A stretch of 64,000 nt of DNA from an uncultured Gammaproteobacteria bacterium (GCA_964568075.1 CAZMOM010000004.1:89227-153226), one strand, 5' to 3'. Numbered from the stretch's first letter, positions 90-3,295 are shown. The notes: generated by a model from the sequence alone, not told the origin. Numbers and translations are program-made.

Positions 90-2249
90 ATGGTTGATCC
101 ACCCGCCGGCGCAATTGCGAAAAATGAATCCAGGTCTTTCCAACACTTGGATGCCGGTCGGAAAATAGGGACCACGGTGGAAAGAAATTTGATGGCCTTT
201 ATACGCAGCAGCTTTCTGCATCTACCCGGAATTGGTGCTAAGCGTGACGCACAGCTGCGAGCTAGGGGCGCAAACGATTGGCAAGACCTGCTGCGGCTTA
301 CACCAAGTCAGCTTGACCTTTATGGAAAGGAAAATGGGCCTCTCCATCACGCTATTGAGGAATCTGAGCTGGCGCTGGAGCGGAAAGATATTCGCTATTT
401 TGCAGACCGATTGCCGAGGCGGGAATGGTATCGGCTAGCAATGACGTTCCCTGAGCGTTGCGTGTTCCTCGATATTGAAACAACTGGACTGAGCCGATTC
501 TACGACAATGTCACGATCATAGGATGGTCCCAGGGTCAAACGTACACTGTGTTGCTTGAATCGGACGGGATTGAGCCGCTGCAGGAACAGCTCGCTGTTG
601 GCCCATTGCTGGTGACCTTCAACGGTTCTCTGTTCGACTTGCCATTCTTAAAGGCAAGATACGACCTGGATTTTTCAACTATTACCCATCTTGACCTGAG
701 ATTTCTTGCCAGGCGTGTTGGACTAAGCGGCGGACAGAAAGCCATCGAGCAGGAAATAGGCGTCACGCGAAATAACAGTCTCAAAGAGGTGGGTGGCGCA
801 CAGGCCGTAGAACTATGGTTTGACTACAAGGAGGGTAGTCAAGCCGCGCTGGAGAAGCTAATTAGATACAACCATGCTGATGTCGAAGGCATGAAAGACA
901 TTCTTGAAATAACTCTGGAAAGGCTGGGCTGCAAAAAAGGTGGACGCATCCCTTCCGTCAAACGAAGCCAGGTCGTCTTTCAGAATGGTACGAATCAGGG
1001 AATCGAGATAAGATCATATACGGGAATGAAGGGCCCAAGGTTGAGTTTCAATTCACTCGCTAAGCGATCGCGGCGCCTAGTTAAGATGCGCGTCGTGGGT
1101 ATCGATCTAACCGGTAGCGAAAAAAGAAAATCTGGTTGGGCCGTTGTAGAGGGCAAAAACTTGCGGACCGACCTCTTGTCCACTGATCAGGAAATCCTAG
1201 ATCGAACCATTGCATCTAAGCCCGCTTTGGTCTCGATCGATTCTCCGCTATCACTTCCTGCAGGGCGCATTGAGGTATCTGATAGCGATCCAGGTCGGGA
1301 CACTTTCGGGATCATGCGCCAGGCCGAACGACAATTGAAAAGAAGGGGAATCAACGTCTATCCAGCCCTGTTACCTAGTATGCAAAAGCTCACGGAGCGA
1401 GGGATTCGGCTTGCTTGTGCACTGCGGTCAGAAGGGATTTCTGTGATTGAGAGCTACCCTGGCGCAGCGCAGGACATACTCGGCATTCCCCGAAAGAAGA
1501 CTAGCCTTCGGCATTTGCGGCTCGGGCTAAGTCGTTTTGGGTATAAGATTGATGGTGCTATGGACGCCTTGTCACATGACGAACTGGATGCGGCGACGTC
1601 AGCATTGGTAGGCCAGTTTCTGTTAGTGGGTTACTTTGAGTTGTTAGGAAGTGGGGAAGAAGACTTCTTGGTGGTTCCAACGATCGAAGTTGATTCTATT
1701 TTTGGTGATGCCGAACTTGTGATCGGAATAAGCGGCCCCGTGGCAGCTGGTAAGACTACGGTGGCCCAAATGCTAGCCTCGCAAGGTTTCGAGTATTGTC
1801 GATTCAGCCAAATCTTAGCCGACAAACTTATGAGCGACGGGCAATCGCAAAATAGACAGGCACTACAGGATCTCGGTTCGAGCTTGCACGACAGCCTCTT
1901 CGGTCAGAGATGGCTTCAGAATGAATTGGCCAATCGCGTGAAGAGCAAGAAGAAGATTGTTATAGACGGGCTACGACACCCGGAGGATCACGCATTCCTC
2001 ACCGAACGGTGGGGGATTCCGGTGGTGCACCTCCGGATCGACGCCACGATGAAGGTTAGAAAGTCGCGCTTTCTTAAGAGAGAGAGCGCCGAACCGGCAG
2101 AATTCCTGCGGGCGGAACAGCACGCTGCGGAGGCGAATGTAAGTCGGCTAAAAAAACTCGCTGGAGGATTCATAATAAACAATGGGACGCTCGCTGATTT
2201 AGAAAACAGGTTGCAGTTACTATTGGAGGACTTGGGCAAATGCCAATAA
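90..2249 (+). CDS. three-domain fusion: HhH + YprB-like RNase H-fold 3'-5' exonuclease / DUF429-like domain / C-terminal P-loop nucleotide-kinase-like domain
   Basis: 719-aa ORF. It has an HhH-like LPGIGAKR and DEDD-type exonuclease motifs FLDIETTGL (res 126-134), TFNGSLFDLPFL and YNHADVEGM. The middle part (VVGIDLTGSEKRKSGWAVV ... SIDSPLSLPAG ... SHDELDAATSAL) resembles DUF429. The C-terminus has Walker A GISGPVAAGKTT (res 546-557) and IVIDGLRHPED. The stop overlaps the next start by 10 nt. The true start may be ATG 192 (MAFIRSS...). Confidence 0.8.
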   Translation: MVDPPAGAIAKNESRSFQHLDAGRKIGTTVERNLMAFIRSSFLHLPGIGAKRDAQLRARGANDWQDLLRLTPSQLDLYGKENGPLHHAIEESELALERKDIRYFADRLPRREWYRLAMTFPERCVFLDIETTGLSRFYDNVTIIGWSQGQTYTVLLESDGIEPLQEQLAVGPLLVTFNGSLFDLPFLKARYDLDFSTITHLDLRFLARRVGLSGGQKAIEQEIGVTRNNSLKEVGGAQAVELWFDYKEGSQAALEKLIRYNHADVEGMKDILEITLERLGCKKGGRIPSVKRSQVVFQNGTNQGIEIRSYTGMKGPRLSFNSLAKRSRRLVKMRVVGIDLTGSEKRKSGWAVVEGKNLRTDLLSTDQEILDRTIASKPALVSIDSPLSLPAGRIEVSDSDPGRDTFGIMRQAERQLKRRGINVYPALLPSMQKLTERGIRLACALRSEGISVIESYPGAAQDILGIPRKKTSLRHLRLGLSRFGYKIDGAMDALSHDELDAATSALVGQFLLVGYFELLGSGEEDFLVVPTIEVDSIFGDAELVIGISGPVAAGKTTVAQMLASQGFEYCRFSQILADKLMSDGQSQNRQALQDLGSSLHDSLFGQRWLQNELANRVKSKKKIVIDGLRHPEDHAFLTERWGIPVVHLRIDATMKVRKSRFLKRESAEPAEFLRAEQHAAEANVSRLKKLAGGFIINNGTLADLENRLQLLLEDLGKCQ

Positions 2250-3295
2250 CGGTAGTCGTCGGCGGACAGTTCGGGTCCGAGGGGAAAGGCAAGATCGCCC
2301 ATTGGCTAGCCAAAAAGCAGGATGCACGAATCGCCGTGCGAGTCGGCGGAGCCAATTCTGGCCACACAGCATATTCTGACACTCACAAGTACGTCTTAAG
2401 GCAGCTGCCAACACCGGTGTTGCATCAAGGTACGATTGCTGTGATTCCCGCGGGCGCATACATAAATCTTGAGGTACTGCTTGCGGAGATATCGAAACTC
2501 TGTCTGGACTCGAGTCGAGTATGGATTCATCCTGAAGCCGTAATAGTTGACGACTCGTTCTGTCGAGATGAAAGCCGATTGGGGTTAATCGAAAAGATCG
2601 GCTCCACCGGCCAGGGTGTAGGCGCAGCTGTCGCGGCGCGTGCATTGAGGGACCCTCGTATCGTATTTGCCCGTGATGTACCTGCCCTTGGCAGCTATGT
2701 CCGCGTCGATCTCCCACACTTACTGGATCGAGCCCTACGTTGTGGCGAAAGAATCTTGCTCGAGGGAACTCAGGGTTTTGGGTTGTCATTGCTACATAGC
2801 GAGCACTATCCGTTTTGTACGAGTAGGGACACAACGGCAGCGGGCGTGCTGGCAGAAAGCGGGTTGAGCCCCATGGATGTTGACTGCATTGCTTTGGTGG
2901 TTCGTGCCTTCCCTATTCGCGTTGCTGGGCATTCCGGACCGCTACCCTTGGAAACAGACTGGGGAGAAGTGAAGCGGCAGTGCGGAGCCAATGTTCCGAT
3001 CATTGAACGAACGACAGTGACGGACAATATCAGGCGAGTCGGTTTCTTTGATGCGAACATTGTGGAGCGGGCCATTGTTGCCAATCGTCCTACGATTGTT
3101 TGTCTTAATCACGCCGACTATTTTGATTATTCCATTCACGATCAAACACATATCAGCTTGATGGCGGCCAGTCGAGTATGGAATATCGAGCAGAAGCTCA
3201 AAACCACAATTAATTGCGCTGGAACGGGCCCTAATATGCTAGTGGAAAGACCATCACTAGGTTGGAATTCGTTGAAAGCCACCAAAGCGGCTTGA
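2240..3295 (+). CDS. short adenylosuccinate synthetase homologue (PurA/PurZ-like)
   Basis: 351 aa. By-eye matches to E. coli PurA: N-terminal P-loop GGQFGSEGKGKI (GTQWGDEGKGK), GGANSGHT (GGHNAGHT), GSTGQGVGAA (GTTGRGIGPA), LEGTQG (FEGAQG), CLNHADYFD (CLTKLDVLD) and GTGPN (STGPD). It is about 80 aa shorter than housekeeping PurA. Confidence 0.85.
   Translation: MPITVVVGGQFGSEGKGKIAHWLAKKQDARIAVRVGGANSGHTAYSDTHKYVLRQLPTPVLHQGTIAVIPAGAYINLEVLLAEISKLCLDSSRVWIHPEAVIVDDSFCRDESRLGLIEKIGSTGQGVGAAVAARALRDPRIVFARDVPALGSYVRVDLPHLLDRALRCGERILLEGTQGFGLSLLHSEHYPFCTSRDTTAAGVLAESGLSPMDVDCIALVVRAFPIRVAGHSGPLPLETDWGEVKRQCGANVPIIERTTVTDNIRRVGFFDANIVERAIVANRPTIVCLNHADYFDYSIHDQTHISLMAASRVWNIEQKLKTTINCAGTGPNMLVERPSLGWNSLKATKAA

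What the first reader, a model, noticed from the sequence alone, without database searches (positions are those of the whole stretch)
2240..3295. PurA homologue with Asp-to-Ser change in the P-loop and a diverged aspartate loop (PurZ-like?)
The protein keeps the PurA landmarks GxxxGxEGKGK, GHT, TGxGxG, GxQG, a (N/T)KxD-like NHAD and a terminal TGP. It differs in three ways. The P-loop reads GSEGKGK where E. coli PurA has GDEGKGK (Asp13 is the catalytic base). The region aligned by eye to the aspartate/IMP loop GATTGRRRRTGW reads RTTVTDNIRRVGF. The protein is also about 80 aa shorter than bacterial PurA. Short, archaeal-like PurA relatives include the phage PurZ enzymes, which act on dGMP to start 2-aminoadenine synthesis. 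I recall that PurZ also lacks the P-loop Asp, but I cannot verify that here. An altered substrate (deoxy, or a different base or amino donor) is therefore plausible.
Basis: partly seen in the sequence, partly recalled or inferred. Interest (0 to 1): 0.75.

Follow-up and report, generated by a model that had tools for sequence, protein, structure and literature searches.

The report
PurZ-like enzyme in bacterial cassette
A short relative of the purine enzyme PurA, carrying the sequence hallmarks of the phage enzyme that starts 2-aminoadenine ("Z base") synthesis, lies in a bacterial chromosome as the core of a conserved, mobile three-to-four-gene nucleotide-processing cassette that occurs in hundreds of bacterial species and looks like an undescribed anti-phage system.

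Summary
ORF 2240-3295 encodes a 351-aa short-type PurA homologue with GSEGKGK in place of GDEGKGK and TTVTDNIRR in place of ATTGRRRR. The PurZ-like reading holds at sequence level. All 8 positions where phage PurZ and PurZ0 jointly differ from PurA are in the PurZ state. The guanine-recognising Asp (NHAD) is kept, as in GTP-using PurZ0. The protein scores below the NCBIfam cut-offs for both PurA and PurZ.

The gene is translationally coupled inside a four-gene operon: HhH/DEDD exonuclease/DUF429/NMP-kinase protein, PurZ-like enzyme, membrane-anchored dCTP-deaminase/dUTPase-fold protein lacking the deaminase Glu, and deoxynucleoside kinase. The cassette recurs in at least 586 species-level genomes of many phyla. 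Its flanks vary, and restriction-modification and toxin-antitoxin genes are often nearby. It also occurs on plasmids. Kinase+PurZ-like and PurZ-like+DCD-like fusions exist. None of 241 viral relatives carries the cassette.

Best reading, inferred and untested: a nucleotide-conversion conflict system that turns (d)GMP into succino-2-amino-(d)AMP and Z nucleotides. I found no published description of it.

The parts
192..2249 (+). Gene 1. The ORF is open from nt 90, but the likely true start is ATG 192 (M35), giving 685 aa. Domains: HhH motif (nt 216-245); DEDD 3'-5' exonuclease of RNase_H_2 type (aa 125-273; FLDIETTGLS at nt 465-494, YNHAD at nt 867-881); DUF429 RNase-H-like domain (aa 337-516; VGIDLTGSE at nt 1095-1121, SHDELDA at nt 1572-1592); P-loop (d)NMP-kinase-like domain (aa 541-715; GISGPVAAGKTT at nt 1725-1760).
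   Evidence: Pfam hits RNase_H_2 1e-27, DUF429 7e-07 and AAA_18 7e-08. The kinase part hits the PADLOC dCTPase and NCBIfam antiphage_deaminase kinase regions and PHROG dNMP kinase. A family profile against PDB matches the kinase to AdkA-like 3lw7 and SSO1041, and the exonuclease to MrfB 8un9 and diDNase 9f7d. Catalytic motifs are conserved in 53 homologues. The start at M35 follows from the 83%-identical 685-aa homologue.
2240..3295 (+). Gene 2, the finding: a 351-aa short-type PurA-family enzyme with PurZ0-like signatures. Its start overlaps the stop of gene 1 by 10 nt, which suggests translational coupling.
2261..2293 (+). P-loop GGQFGSEGKGK. Ser13 (nt 2276-2278) replaces the catalytic Asp13 of PurA.
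   Evidence: Ser occupies this position in 100% of 77 cassette sequences.
3011..3037 (+). Aspartate/nucleotide loop TTVTDNIRR. The first Thr corresponds to S-2L PurZ Thr273 (Gly in PurA). The position equivalent to E. coli Arg303 is Asn here, and Arg or Lys in most family members.
   Evidence: Structural roles are taken from PMC8342488.
3107..3118 (+). NHAD, the counterpart of the PurA (N/T)KxD guanine-specificity motif. The Asp is kept, as in PurA and PurZ0, and is lost in ATP-using PurZ.
   Evidence: Asp in 100% of cassette sequences.
3309..4334 (+). Gene 3: a 341-aa protein. It has an N-terminal dCTP-deaminase/dUTPase-fold domain (aa ~10-175; VDPGFKG at nt 3717-3737; Pro at the position of the Dcd catalytic Glu138, within nt 3744-3761). 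A long helix follows, with one transmembrane segment (aa 245-269, nt 4041-4115), and then a disordered acidic tail.
   Evidence: Pfam DCD 8e-08. AlphaFold model pLDDT 81.7. Foldseek against PDB gives Dcd, DCD-DUT and dUTPase at E = 2e-9 and TM about 0.75. Alignment A3. hhalign register against Dcd, Dut and DutZ. A TM segment is present in 119 of 119 homologues.
4344..4946 (+). Gene 4: a 200-aa deoxynucleoside-kinase family protein, with P-loop GGIASGKTT (nt 4365-4391) and LID RIQARNREVE (nt 4731-4760).
   Evidence: Pfam dNK 5e-21. Motif conservation in 43 homologues. Present in 36 of 60 complete loci.

Best explanation
ORF 2240-3295 encodes a bacterial, PurZ0-type relative of adenylosuccinate synthetase. 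It most likely uses GTP to ligate L-aspartate to C6 of a guanine nucleotide, dGMP or possibly GMP. The product would be N6-succino-2-amino-(d)AMP, rather than adenylosuccinate made from IMP.

It is the signature enzyme of a self-contained, horizontally mobile three-to-four-gene cassette. The proposed working model is as follows.
1. The HhH/DEDD-exonuclease/DUF429 protein and the deoxynucleoside kinase supply dNMPs, from DNA ends or breakdown products and from deoxynucleosides respectively.
2. The PurZ-like enzyme converts dGMP.
3. Host PurB may remove fumarate to give dZMP.
4. The NMP-kinase domain, which in other variants is fused directly to the PurZ-like enzyme, together with host Ndk raises the product to the di- and triphosphate.
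5. The membrane-anchored dUTPase-superfamily protein binds a deoxynucleoside triphosphate. It may act as a pyrophosphatase that feeds dGMP, like DutZ of PurZ0 phages, or as a nucleotide-gated membrane effector.

The biological role is most likely anti-phage or anti-mobile-element conflict. It could work by producing a non-canonical purine nucleotide as a poison or messenger, and by draining guanine deoxynucleotides.

Shown here: homology, signature residues, operon conservation, domain fusions, distribution and fold of the partners. Inferred: substrate, product, order of steps, defence role, and the role of the membrane protein.
For: Enzyme identity:
- Ser replaces Asp13, and all 8 joint PurZ/PurZ0-versus-PurA signature positions are in the PurZ state in 74-100% of 77 cassette sequences. 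Positions changed only in ATP-using PurZ stay PurA/PurZ0-like.
- The other catalytic residues are invariant: Lys16, His42, Gln178, Arg137, Thr261, Arg265/266.
- The closest solved sequence is PurZ0 7vf6.
- Mean identity is 38.6% to PurZ0, 35.3% to archaeal PurA, 33.7% to PurZ and 30.7% to E. coli PurA.
- The protein scores below the PurA equivalog cut-offs.

Operon:
- Genes 1 and 2 overlap by 10 nt, and the other intergenic gaps are 13 and 9 nt.
- The same order is seen in distant genomes. Of 60 complete genome loci, the DCD-like gene is present in 58, DUF429 in 55, the kinase in 54, the exonuclease in 50 and dNK in 36. No other conserved neighbour was found.
- Rosetta-stone fusions exist: PurZ-like+DCD-like+TM (P0123) and kinase+PurZ-like (several).

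Mobility and conflict context:
- At least 586 GTDB species across many phyla carry a relative.
- The cassette is plasmid-borne in Sinorhizobium, next to AbiEii and PHD genes.
- Flanks include MmeI and type ISP restriction-modification genes, ParE/HigB, Fic and transposases.
- About 10 of the 150 nearest flanking genes hit type I restriction-modification, RmrA or MADS models.
- The window shows a GC dip to 0.50 against 0.55-0.60.
- In a relative the cassette sits at the same hotspot in the opposite orientation.

Partner chemistry:
- DEDD and DUF429 acidic motifs, both P-loops and the dNK LID are conserved.
- The DCD-like domain keeps the motif-III Asp and the aromatic residue that stacks on deoxyribose, but has Pro at the deaminase Glu position.
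- In phages PurZ0 is immediately followed by DutZ, a dATP/dGTP pyrophosphatase of the same superfamily.

Against: - No activity or phenotype has been measured for any member.
- No PADLOC model matches genes 2-4.
- Most flanking genes are housekeeping, so the defence-island signal is moderate.
- The window protein is an outlier in the aspartate loop (Asp-Asn where most relatives have Lys/Arg-Lys/Arg), so its kinetics or substrate may differ from the family norm.
- Deoxy versus ribo specificity cannot be read from sequence, because the Arg303 equivalent is retained in many members.
- No trigger, and no safeguard against self-toxicity, is evident.
- The role of DUF429 is unknown (no PDB relative).
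- The NJ phylogeny leaves deep nodes unresolved (bootstrap below 25).
Confidence: 0.5

Rival explanations
1. Ordinary housekeeping adenylosuccinate synthetase of the short (archaeal-like) type, making adenylosuccinate from IMP.
For: The PF00709 fold is present and most catalytic residues are intact. The best NCBIfam hit by score is the archaeal-type PurA model NF003295, at 260 bits. The structure is closest to P. horikoshii PurA.
Against: The catalytic Asp13 is Ser in 100% of the family, and all PurZ-type signature positions are shared. The protein scores below every PurA equivalog cut-off. It is embedded in a mobile cassette with nucleases and kinases, with patchy distribution and plasmid copies. 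Sinorhizobium replicons carry a separate canonical purA (H64 and H65).
Confidence: 0.03
2. Remnant or cargo of an integrated Z-genome phage. On this view it is a true PurZ0 whose role is to substitute 2-aminoadenine for adenine in phage DNA.
For: The closest characterised relatives are phage PurZ0 enzymes. A dUTPase-superfamily gene follows it, as DutZ follows PurZ0 in phages.
Against: There are no phage structural, replication or integrase genes around the cassette, in the window or in 83 other loci. The only conserved neighbours are the cassette genes. No DatZ, MazZ, DutZ or PolA is present. None of 241 relatives in IMG/VR carries the cassette; those loci have DutZ, NDT or PolA instead. Phage PurZ0 sequences form their own clade (bootstrap 92).
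Confidence: 0.05
3. A pure nucleotide-depletion system. The dUTPase-fold protein hydrolyses dGTP (or other dNTPs) and the PurZ-like enzyme irreversibly drains dGMP and GTP, starving phage replication. The product itself has no role.
For: Depletion of dNTPs is an established defence principle. The kinase domain resembles that of anti-phage dCTP deaminases. The motif-III Asp is retained in the DCD-like protein. The PurZ reaction consumes dGMP plus GTP (established for PurZ0; my knowledge of Tong et al. 2023, not read here).
Against: Two kinases in the cassette push nucleosides and NMPs upward, which is the opposite of depletion. Kinase+PurZ-like fusions suggest that a product is being built. The universal membrane anchor of the DCD-like protein is unexplained by a soluble sink.
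Confidence: 0.15
4. Biosynthesis or salvage of a nucleoside natural product or modified nucleotide unrelated to phages, analogous to ToyG in toyocamycin-type 7-deazapurine clusters. The membrane protein would serve export or resistance.
For: PurA paralogues are used this way. A PurA homologue lies in a folE-queCDE-purB-IMPDH-nitrile hydratase cluster on Rhizobium plasmids.
Against: The cassette has no purB, glycosyl- or phosphoribosyl-transferase, or tailoring genes. It carries a DNA exonuclease with an HhH motif. The ToyG-like proteins are only about 34% identical to the window protein and sit in a different context.
Confidence: 0.1

Closest known systems
PurZ0, the GTP-dependent succino-amino-deoxyadenylate synthase of actinophages (PDB 7VF6; Gordonia phages Archimedes and Ghobes, Arthrobacter phage Wayne)
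   Same: Short PurA fold. P-loop GSE(G/A)KG with Ser for Asp13. TTVT loop. Guanine-specific Asp retained. Followed by a dUTPase-superfamily gene. Best PDB sequence match (E = 5e-48) and highest mean identity (38.6%).
   Different: The window protein is bacterial and chromosomal or plasmid-borne, not phage-borne. It falls outside the PurZ0 clade. Its partners are an exonuclease/DUF429/kinase protein, a membrane-anchored DCD-like protein and dNK, instead of DutZ, DmtZ and PolA. The window copy has Asp-Asn where PurZ0 has Asn/Gln-Lys in the loop.
PurZ, the ATP/dATP-dependent enzyme of phiVC8, S-2L and SH-Ab 15497 (NCBIfam NF038379; PDB 6FM1, 7ODX)
   Same: Ser for Asp13, and Thr for Gly299 (S-2L T273). 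It shares the 8 joint signature positions. The PHROG 1211 match has E = 3.5e-73.
   Different: It keeps Glu14, Lys18 and the NHAD Asp, where PurZ has GSTGKGL and NFxN/Q. It lacks the S-2L loop insertion. NF038379 scores 231 against a cut-off of 300. No DatZ, MazZ or DpoZ neighbours are present.
Archaeal short PurA (Pyrococcus horikoshii, PDB 2D7U and 5K7X; NCBIfam NF003295)
   Same: Same length class and fold (TM 0.84-0.87). GTP-type motif.
   Different: Archaeal PurA has GDEGKG and GTVTGRRRR. The window protein scores 260 against a cut-off of 368.
Product-based nucleotide immunity: prokaryotic viperins (ddhNTP chain terminators) and Kongming (dITP messenger made by a deaminase plus kinases). 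These comparisons rest on my knowledge of the literature, which was not read here.
   Same: What it may work like: a base- or sugar-modifying enzyme teamed with nucleotide kinases to make a non-canonical (d)NTP in a mobile operon.
   Different: No homology to either. The PurA-type ligase chemistry differs. No SIR2 or radical-SAM component is present. Nothing has been tested.
[quoted passage not shown]
   Same: This is the only published hint found that PurA-family enzymes occur in predicted immune operons.
   Different: The mention is one sentence with no description. No PUA-like, Calcineurin-CE or HAD genes were found next to the cassette or its variants sampled here.
ToyG-type PurA paralogues in 7-deazapurine antibiotic clusters
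   Same: A PurA paralogue acting on a non-IMP purine nucleotide.
   Different: Different clade (about 34% identity) and a different, clearly biosynthetic neighbourhood that includes purB.

Membership tests
Canonical adenylosuccinate synthetase PurA (EC 6.3.4.4) | PF00709 fold with P-loop, GHT, TGxGxG and GxQG motifs | tested here: met
   Pfam E = 1e-45. Motifs located. AlphaFold and Foldseek TM 0.76-0.87 to PurA structures.
Canonical adenylosuccinate synthetase PurA (EC 6.3.4.4) | Catalytic base Asp13 in GDEGKGK | tested here: not met
   Ser13 (TCC, nt 2276-2278). Ser in 100% of 77 cassette homologues.
Canonical adenylosuccinate synthetase PurA (EC 6.3.4.4) | Score above the curated equivalog cut-offs (TIGR00184, NF002223, NF003295) | tested here: not met
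   174.5 against 395.6; 152 against 402; 260.1 against 368.
Canonical adenylosuccinate synthetase PurA (EC 6.3.4.4) | Sole purA of the genome, in a housekeeping context | tested here: inconclusive
   No second PurA in the 64-kb window, but the rest of the genome is not available. The context is an accessory cassette. Plasmid copies exist.
PurZ (ATP-dependent; NCBIfam NF038379) | Asp13 to Ser, plus the PurZ-specific substrate-contact residue (S-2L Thr273) | tested here: met
   Ser13 and Thr258. All 8 of the joint PurZ/PurZ0 signature positions are shared. Roles taken from PMC8342488.
PurZ (ATP-dependent; NCBIfam NF038379) | ATP-type pocket: GSTGKGL P-loop, and NFxN/Q replacing the guanine-specific Asp | tested here: not met
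   GSEGKGK and NHAD are retained.
PurZ (ATP-dependent; NCBIfam NF038379) | Score above the curated cut-off | tested here: not met
   230.9 against 300.
PurZ (ATP-dependent; NCBIfam NF038379) | Phage genome with DatZ, MazZ, or DpoZ or PrimPol | tested here: not met
   No such genes in the window or in 83 cassette loci.
PurZ0 (GTP-dependent phage enzyme) | Ser P-loop together with a retained guanine-recognising Asp | tested here: met
   GSEGKGK and NHAD. Ghobes, Wayne and Parvaparticeps have GSE(A/G)KG with SFAD, TMLD and TMAD respectively.
PurZ0 (GTP-dependent phage enzyme) | Monophyly with phage PurZ0 | tested here: not met
   In the NJ tree, phage PurZ0 plus 7 representatives form a clade (bootstrap 92) that excludes all 81 cassette sequences. 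Deeper nodes are unresolved.
PurZ0 (GTP-dependent phage enzyme) | Adjacent DutZ (Dut-like dATP/dGTP pyrophosphatase) | tested here: inconclusive
   The adjacent gene belongs to the same superfamily, but it is DCD-like, membrane-anchored, and no closer to DutZ than to Dcd or Dut by hhalign.
PurZ0 / PurZ | Catalysis: dGMP + Asp + NTP gives N6-succino-2-amino-dAMP | not testable with these tools
   Needs an enzyme assay.
Anti-phage defence system (generic criteria) | Conserved operon moving as a unit between unrelated neighbourhoods and phyla | tested here: met
   Also the same hotspot in inverted orientation.
Anti-phage defence system (generic criteria) | Enrichment next to known defence genes | tested here: inconclusive
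   About 10 of the 150 nearest flanking genes hit type I restriction-modification, RmrA or MADS models. Further examples include MmeI, type ISP, toxin-antitoxin, AbiEii and Gabija-like genes. No background control was run.
Anti-phage defence system (generic criteria) | Match to a catalogued system (PADLOC-DB 2.0) | tested here: not met
   Only the kinase and DUF429 parts of gene 1 give weak hits. Genes 2-4 give none.
Anti-phage defence system (generic criteria) | Protection against phage when expressed | not testable with these tools
   Needs an experiment.
dCTP deaminase (Dcd), for gene 3 | Dcd/dUTPase beta-fold | tested here: met
   Foldseek E = 2e-9, TM about 0.75 to 3km3, 2qlp and 4xjc.
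dCTP deaminase (Dcd), for gene 3 | Catalytic Glu138 (VLEF) | tested here: not met
   Nearly invariant Pro at that position (LIPLHN) in 38 homologues.

The most novel reading that the evidence does not exclude
The cassette is a new class of bacterial immune system. On infection it converts deoxyguanylate, released from DNA or salvaged, into succino-amino-deoxyadenylate and 2-aminoadenine nucleotides. It uses this non-canonical purine either as an immune messenger that gates a membrane-anchored dUTPase-fold effector or as a poison of phage DNA. This large bacterial family, rather than archaeal PurA directly, would then be the reservoir from which phages recruited PurZ0 and PurZ to build Z-genomes.
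Probability: 0.3. Interest if true: 0.9.

Novelty: new variant of a known kind. Interest (0 to 1): 0.8.

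Why it matters
PurZ-type enzymes are so far known as the phage trick that replaces adenine by 2-aminoadenine in DNA. A large bacterial family of such enzymes, locked into a mobile operon with a DNA exonuclease, two kinases and a membrane-anchored dNTP-binding-fold protein, would matter in three ways.
- Bacteria themselves would be making, or exploiting, 2-aminopurine nucleotides.
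- It would add a new chemistry to nucleotide-based immunity.
- It would reopen the question of where phage Z-genome synthesis came from, currently told as archaeal PurA to PurZ0 to PurZ.

The idea is directly testable with a cloned four-gene cassette, a phage panel and LC-MS. The enzymes could also be useful for making Z-DNA precursors.

Tried and rejected
- **Literature.** Ten full-text searches found no description of the cassette. The only relevant text was one sentence in a 2026 preprint. DUF7002 appears in no paper.
- **PADLOC.** No model matches genes 2-4 or their variants.
- **Exact look-up of the window protein's contig.** Not on record. The window genome was not among the GTDB representatives returned (best 57% identity), so whether it has a canonical purA could not be checked.
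- **AlphaFold of gene 1 with a locus-derived alignment.** DUF429 therefore stays without a structural assignment. The profile against PDB gave no DUF429 hit.
- **hhalign of the DCD-like family against E. coli Dcd, E. coli Dut and Ghobes DutZ.** All were equally weak (E = 0.002-0.014), so this does not decide between sensor and pyrophosphatase.
- **NJ phylogeny with 100 bootstraps.** Family-level clades were recovered, but deep branching order is unresolved. No ML program was available.
- **Prophage origin.** Rejected, because there are no phage genes and the flanks are variable.
- **Neighbours of non-cassette relatives, screened for PUA, Calcineurin or HAD domains.** None found. Those loci are mostly true PurZ0 phages with PolA, NDT or DutZ.
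- **DUF7002 as an ART/DarT-like toxin.** This idea rests only on a remembered N-terminal motif and was not tested.

Full report
**1. The observation**

The window has an ATG-started 351-aa ORF at 2240-3295 on the + strand.
- GGQFGSEGKGK (aa 8-18)
- GHT (aa 41-43)
- TGQGVG (aa 123-128)
- GTQG (aa 176-179)
- TTVTDNIRR (aa 258-266)
- NHAD (aa 290-293)
- GTGP (aa 328-331)

Pfam assigns it to Adenylsucc_synt (E = 1e-45). I aligned it with E. coli PurA taken from NC_000913 and with phage PurZ and PurZ0 proteins taken from annotated phage records. The alignment confirms three points:
- The catalytic Asp13 of PurA is Ser here.
- The loop (G)ATTGRRRR reads (T)TVTDNIRR.
- The protein is 81 aa shorter than E. 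coli PurA.

An AlphaFold model (pLDDT 85.9) superposes on P. horikoshii PurA (TM 0.84-0.87), on PurZ0 7vf6 (about 0.8) and on phiVC8 PurZ (about 0.8).

**2. What kind of PurA relative it is**

NCBIfam places it between families. The archaeal-type PurA model NF003295 scores 260 bits against a cut-off of 368. The PurZ model NF038379 scores 231 against 300. The bacterial purA models score far below cut-off. The best solved-structure sequence match is 7vf6, which PMC12884076 identifies as PurZ0 of Gordonia phage Archimedes.

I compared 7 PurA proteins (6 archaeal plus E. coli), 5 PurZ, 3 PurZ0 and 77 members of the window protein's own family, column by column.
- At all 8 positions where PurZ and PurZ0 jointly differ from PurA, the family has the PurZ state in 74-100% of sequences. 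In E. coli numbering including Met these are D14S, V73S, C104A, D115E, P136A, K268R, T272I and G299T.
- Two of these, Ser23 and Thr273 in S-2L numbering, contact the substrates in the S-2L PurZ structure (PMC8342488).
- At positions changed only in ATP-using PurZ, the family keeps the PurA/PurZ0 state. These are the P-loop Glu and Lys and the guanine-specific Asp of the (N/T)KxD motif.

The other catalytic residues of PurA (Lys16, His41, Gln224, Arg143, Thr301, Arg305) are invariant. The sequence therefore predicts a PurZ0-like enzyme with a guanine nucleotide as acceptor, GTP as phosphate donor and aspartate as amino donor.

Deoxy versus ribo specificity cannot be read from sequence. The Arg303 equivalent, which contacts the 2'-OH in PurA, is Arg or Lys in most family members. 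In the window protein and its closest relatives it is Asn.

**3. Relationship to phage enzymes**

A search of 1.84 billion cluster representatives gave 8004 relatives, 713 of them at E <= 1e-30. Nearly all of the best 150 have Ser in the P-loop.

Mean identity of the family to other groups:

| Group | Mean identity |
|---|---|
| PurZ0 | 38.6% |
| Archaeal PurA | 35.3% |
| PurZ | 33.7% |
| E. coli PurA | 30.7% |

In a neighbour-joining tree, phage PurZ0 plus 7 representatives form a clade with bootstrap 92 that excludes all 81 cassette sequences. The cassette sequences group together with 36 representatives, but deep nodes have bootstrap below 25. The protein belongs to a distinct bacterial branch of the Ser-type (PurZ-like) enzymes. 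Its exact position relative to PurZ0 and archaeal PurA is unresolved.

**4. The surroundings change the picture**

The gene is the second of four tightly packed + strand genes.

- **Gene 1** is open from nt 90. Its likely start is ATG 192, as in the 83%-identical 685-aa homologue, and it ends at 2249, overlapping the PurZ-like start by 10 nt. It combines four parts:
  - a helix-hairpin-helix motif;
  - a DEDD 3'-5' exonuclease (Pfam RNase_H_2, 1e-27), whose family profile matches the MrfB and diDNase exonucleases in PDB;
  - a DUF429 RNase-H-like domain;
  - a P-loop kinase that resembles archaeal AdkA-like and CoaE kinases, phage dNMP kinases, and the kinase part of anti-phage dCTP deaminases.
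- **Gene 3** (3309-4334) has a dCTP-deaminase/dUTPase fold (Pfam DCD). In the AlphaFold model (pLDDT 81.7), Foldseek gives E = 2e-9 and TM about 0.75 to Dcd, DCD-DUT and dUTPases. A long helix follows, with one transmembrane segment and an acidic tail. The catalytic Glu138 of Dcd is a nearly invariant Pro. The motif-III Asp and the aromatic residue that stacks on deoxyribose are kept. All 119 homologues longer than 280 aa have the TM segment.
- **Gene 4** (4344-4946) is a deoxynucleoside-kinase family protein with an intact P-loop and LID.

**5. The cassette is conserved and mobile**

Contig look-ups showed the same four genes in the same order in unrelated neighbourhoods. They span Gamma-, Alpha- and Betaproteobacteria, Desulfobacterota, Acidobacteriota, Bacteroidota, Firmicutes, Cyanobacteria, Actinobacteria, Nitrospirota, NC10 and others.

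Component counts in the 60 loci with complete flanks:

| Component or arrangement | Loci |
|---|---|
| DCD-like gene | 58 |
| DUF429 | 55 |
| Kinase | 54 |
| Exonuclease | 50 |
| dNK | 36 |
| Full canonical order | 29 |
| Canonical order without dNK | 15 |

All-against-all clustering of flanking ORFs found no other conserved neighbour.

Domain fusions tie the parts together. P0123 is PurZ-like + DCD-like + TM in one chain. Many proteins are kinase + PurZ-like, and one has two kinases.

In a relative with 83% identical cassette proteins, the cassette sits at the same origin-proximal hotspot, between the mnmG-hydrolase-ABC block and mnmE, but in the opposite orientation. The backbone ABC ATPase there is only 67% identical. 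The first 6 kb of the window have GC 0.50, against 0.55-0.60 further on.

**6. Not a phage module**

The window is ordinary origin-proximal chromosome: mnmG, an ABC transporter, the atp operon, glmU and glmS. Of 241 relatives in IMG/VR, none has the cassette. Most are classical PurZ0 phages in which PurZ0 is immediately followed by DutZ, and others carry PolA, NDT or thymidylate synthase. The parallel gene order is notable: a PurZ0-type enzyme followed by a dUTPase-superfamily gene, in both phages and the bacterial cassette. DutZ has been shown to hydrolyse dATP and dGTP to the monophosphates (PMC12884076).

**7. Conflict-system signals**

Flanks include:
- a type ISP and an MmeI-type restriction enzyme, ParE and HigB toxins, Fic proteins and transposases;
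- a conjugative Sinorhizobium plasmid carrying a two-gene PurZ-like + DCD-like form next to AbiEii and a PHD antitoxin;
- a kinase-PurZ-like + DUF7002 pair on a Burkholderia plasmid next to TOPRIM and UvrD genes.

Among the 150 nearest flanking genes of 42 loci, the commonest PADLOC hits are type I methylases (4), specificity subunits (3), RmrA (3) and MADS mad5 (3). Most others are housekeeping. This is a moderate signal, and I ran no background control. PADLOC-DB 2.0 has no model for genes 2-4.

Ten literature searches found no description. [quoted passage not shown]

**8. Mechanism (inferred)**

The parts read as a pathway that takes DNA or deoxynucleosides to a modified purine deoxynucleotide.
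1. The exonuclease releases dNMPs, and dNK phosphorylates deoxynucleosides.
2. The PurZ-like enzyme succinylates C6 of dGMP, using GTP.
3. Host PurB could then give dZMP, as in Z phages.
4. The NMP-kinase domain and host Ndk would raise the product to the triphosphate, which is the ligand class bound by the dUTPase fold.

The membrane-anchored DCD-like protein may be a DutZ-like supplier of dGMP, a house-cleaning safeguard, or a nucleotide-gated membrane effector. In some variants it is replaced by DUF7002. That replacement fits the mix-and-match pattern of generator and effector seen in signalling-type defence systems, but this is an argument from analogy.

I put about 0.9 on 'PurZ-like enzyme in a conserved bacterial cassette'. 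I put about 0.6 on a guanine-nucleotide substrate with GTP as donor. I put about 0.5 on a defence or conflict role, and about 0.2-0.3 on any particular downstream mechanism.

**9. Verdict**

The finding is real. This is a new bacterial branch of the PurZ/PurZ0 kind of enzyme, embedded in an apparently undescribed, widespread mobile cassette. I scored it as a new variant of a known kind, because the enzyme chemistry and the general idea of nucleotide-modifying immunity are known. If the defence role and a Z-nucleotide product are confirmed, it would be a new immune mechanism, and it would bear on the origin of phage Z-genomes.

Noticed in passing
window 90-2249 (start at 192): The first gene of the cassette is open from nt 90. 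All homologues begin at the Met corresponding to nt 192 (MAFIRSSFLHLPGIG), and the 83%-identical relative is 685 aa. The annotated start should therefore probably be 192.
   Followed up: yes
window 1-12137 compared with L002 1-12148: Both have the same origin-proximal hotspot (mnmG-hydrolase-ABC-ABC2 ... mnmE), but the cassette is inverted relative to the backbone. The window also has three extra genes between them: a TPR/transglutaminase-like lipoprotein (5274-6431), a membrane protein (6483-7208, - strand) and a GGDEF protein (7279-8502, - strand). Cassette proteins are 83% identical, while the backbone ABC ATPase is 67% identical.
   Followed up: partly
window 56590-61314 (-): A 1574-aa RHS-repeat protein (DUF6531 plus RHS repeats), the architecture of a polymorphic toxin. 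Its C-terminal toxin domain and any immunity gene were not examined.
   Followed up: no
L180 7431-9774; L141 5428-7773: A two-gene module consisting of a kinase+PurZ-like fusion (about 560-570 aa) followed by a DUF7002 protein (216 aa). One copy is on a Burkholderia thailandensis plasmid beside TOPRIM and UvrD (Gabija-like) genes, and one is in a viral contig. The DUF7002 N-terminus (YPRIFHMAE..W.SI..RGL.S) reminded me of ART/DarT-type toxins, but this was not tested.
   Followed up: partly
P0123 (644 aa, metagenomic): A single chain containing the PurZ-like enzyme, the DCD-like domain and the transmembrane helix. This would tether the PurZ-like enzyme to the membrane.
   Followed up: partly
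L181 7375-15723 (Rhizobium leguminosarum plasmid pCC283b_4): A PurA homologue (about 34% identical to the window protein) sits between folE and purB in a cluster with queC, queE, 6-carboxytetrahydropterin synthase, an IMPDH-like gene, nitrile hydratase, a phosphoribosyltransferase and a HAD phosphatase. This looks like a toyocamycin/sangivamycin-type 7-deazapurine pathway (ToyG-like use of PurA).
   Followed up: no
L116-L178 (IMG/VR contigs): In dozens of uncultured phage contigs the PurZ0 gene is immediately followed by a DutZ-like gene, often with an NDT-like gene between them. This matches the published PurZ0 gene set. The bacterial cassette has the same enzyme-then-dUTPase-superfamily order.
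   Followed up: partly
L099-L106 (IMG/VR contigs, 28-312 kb): Viral-classified contigs carry PurZ-like genes 42-50% identical to the window protein, closer than actinophage PurZ0. phmmer detected neither a DutZ nor a DCD-like partner. Neighbours are mostly unannotated (one RtcB, one YukD-like). They may bridge the bacterial and phage clades, or may be misclassified bacterial DNA.
   Followed up: partly
L179 7302-7904 (-) and L179 10613-11944 (-): In the two-gene plasmid form (Sinorhizobium medicae pMl2), a weak YfbR-like HD 5'-deoxynucleotidase hit lies divergently upstream and a ThiF-like protein lies downstream. These may be alternative accessory genes.
   Followed up: no
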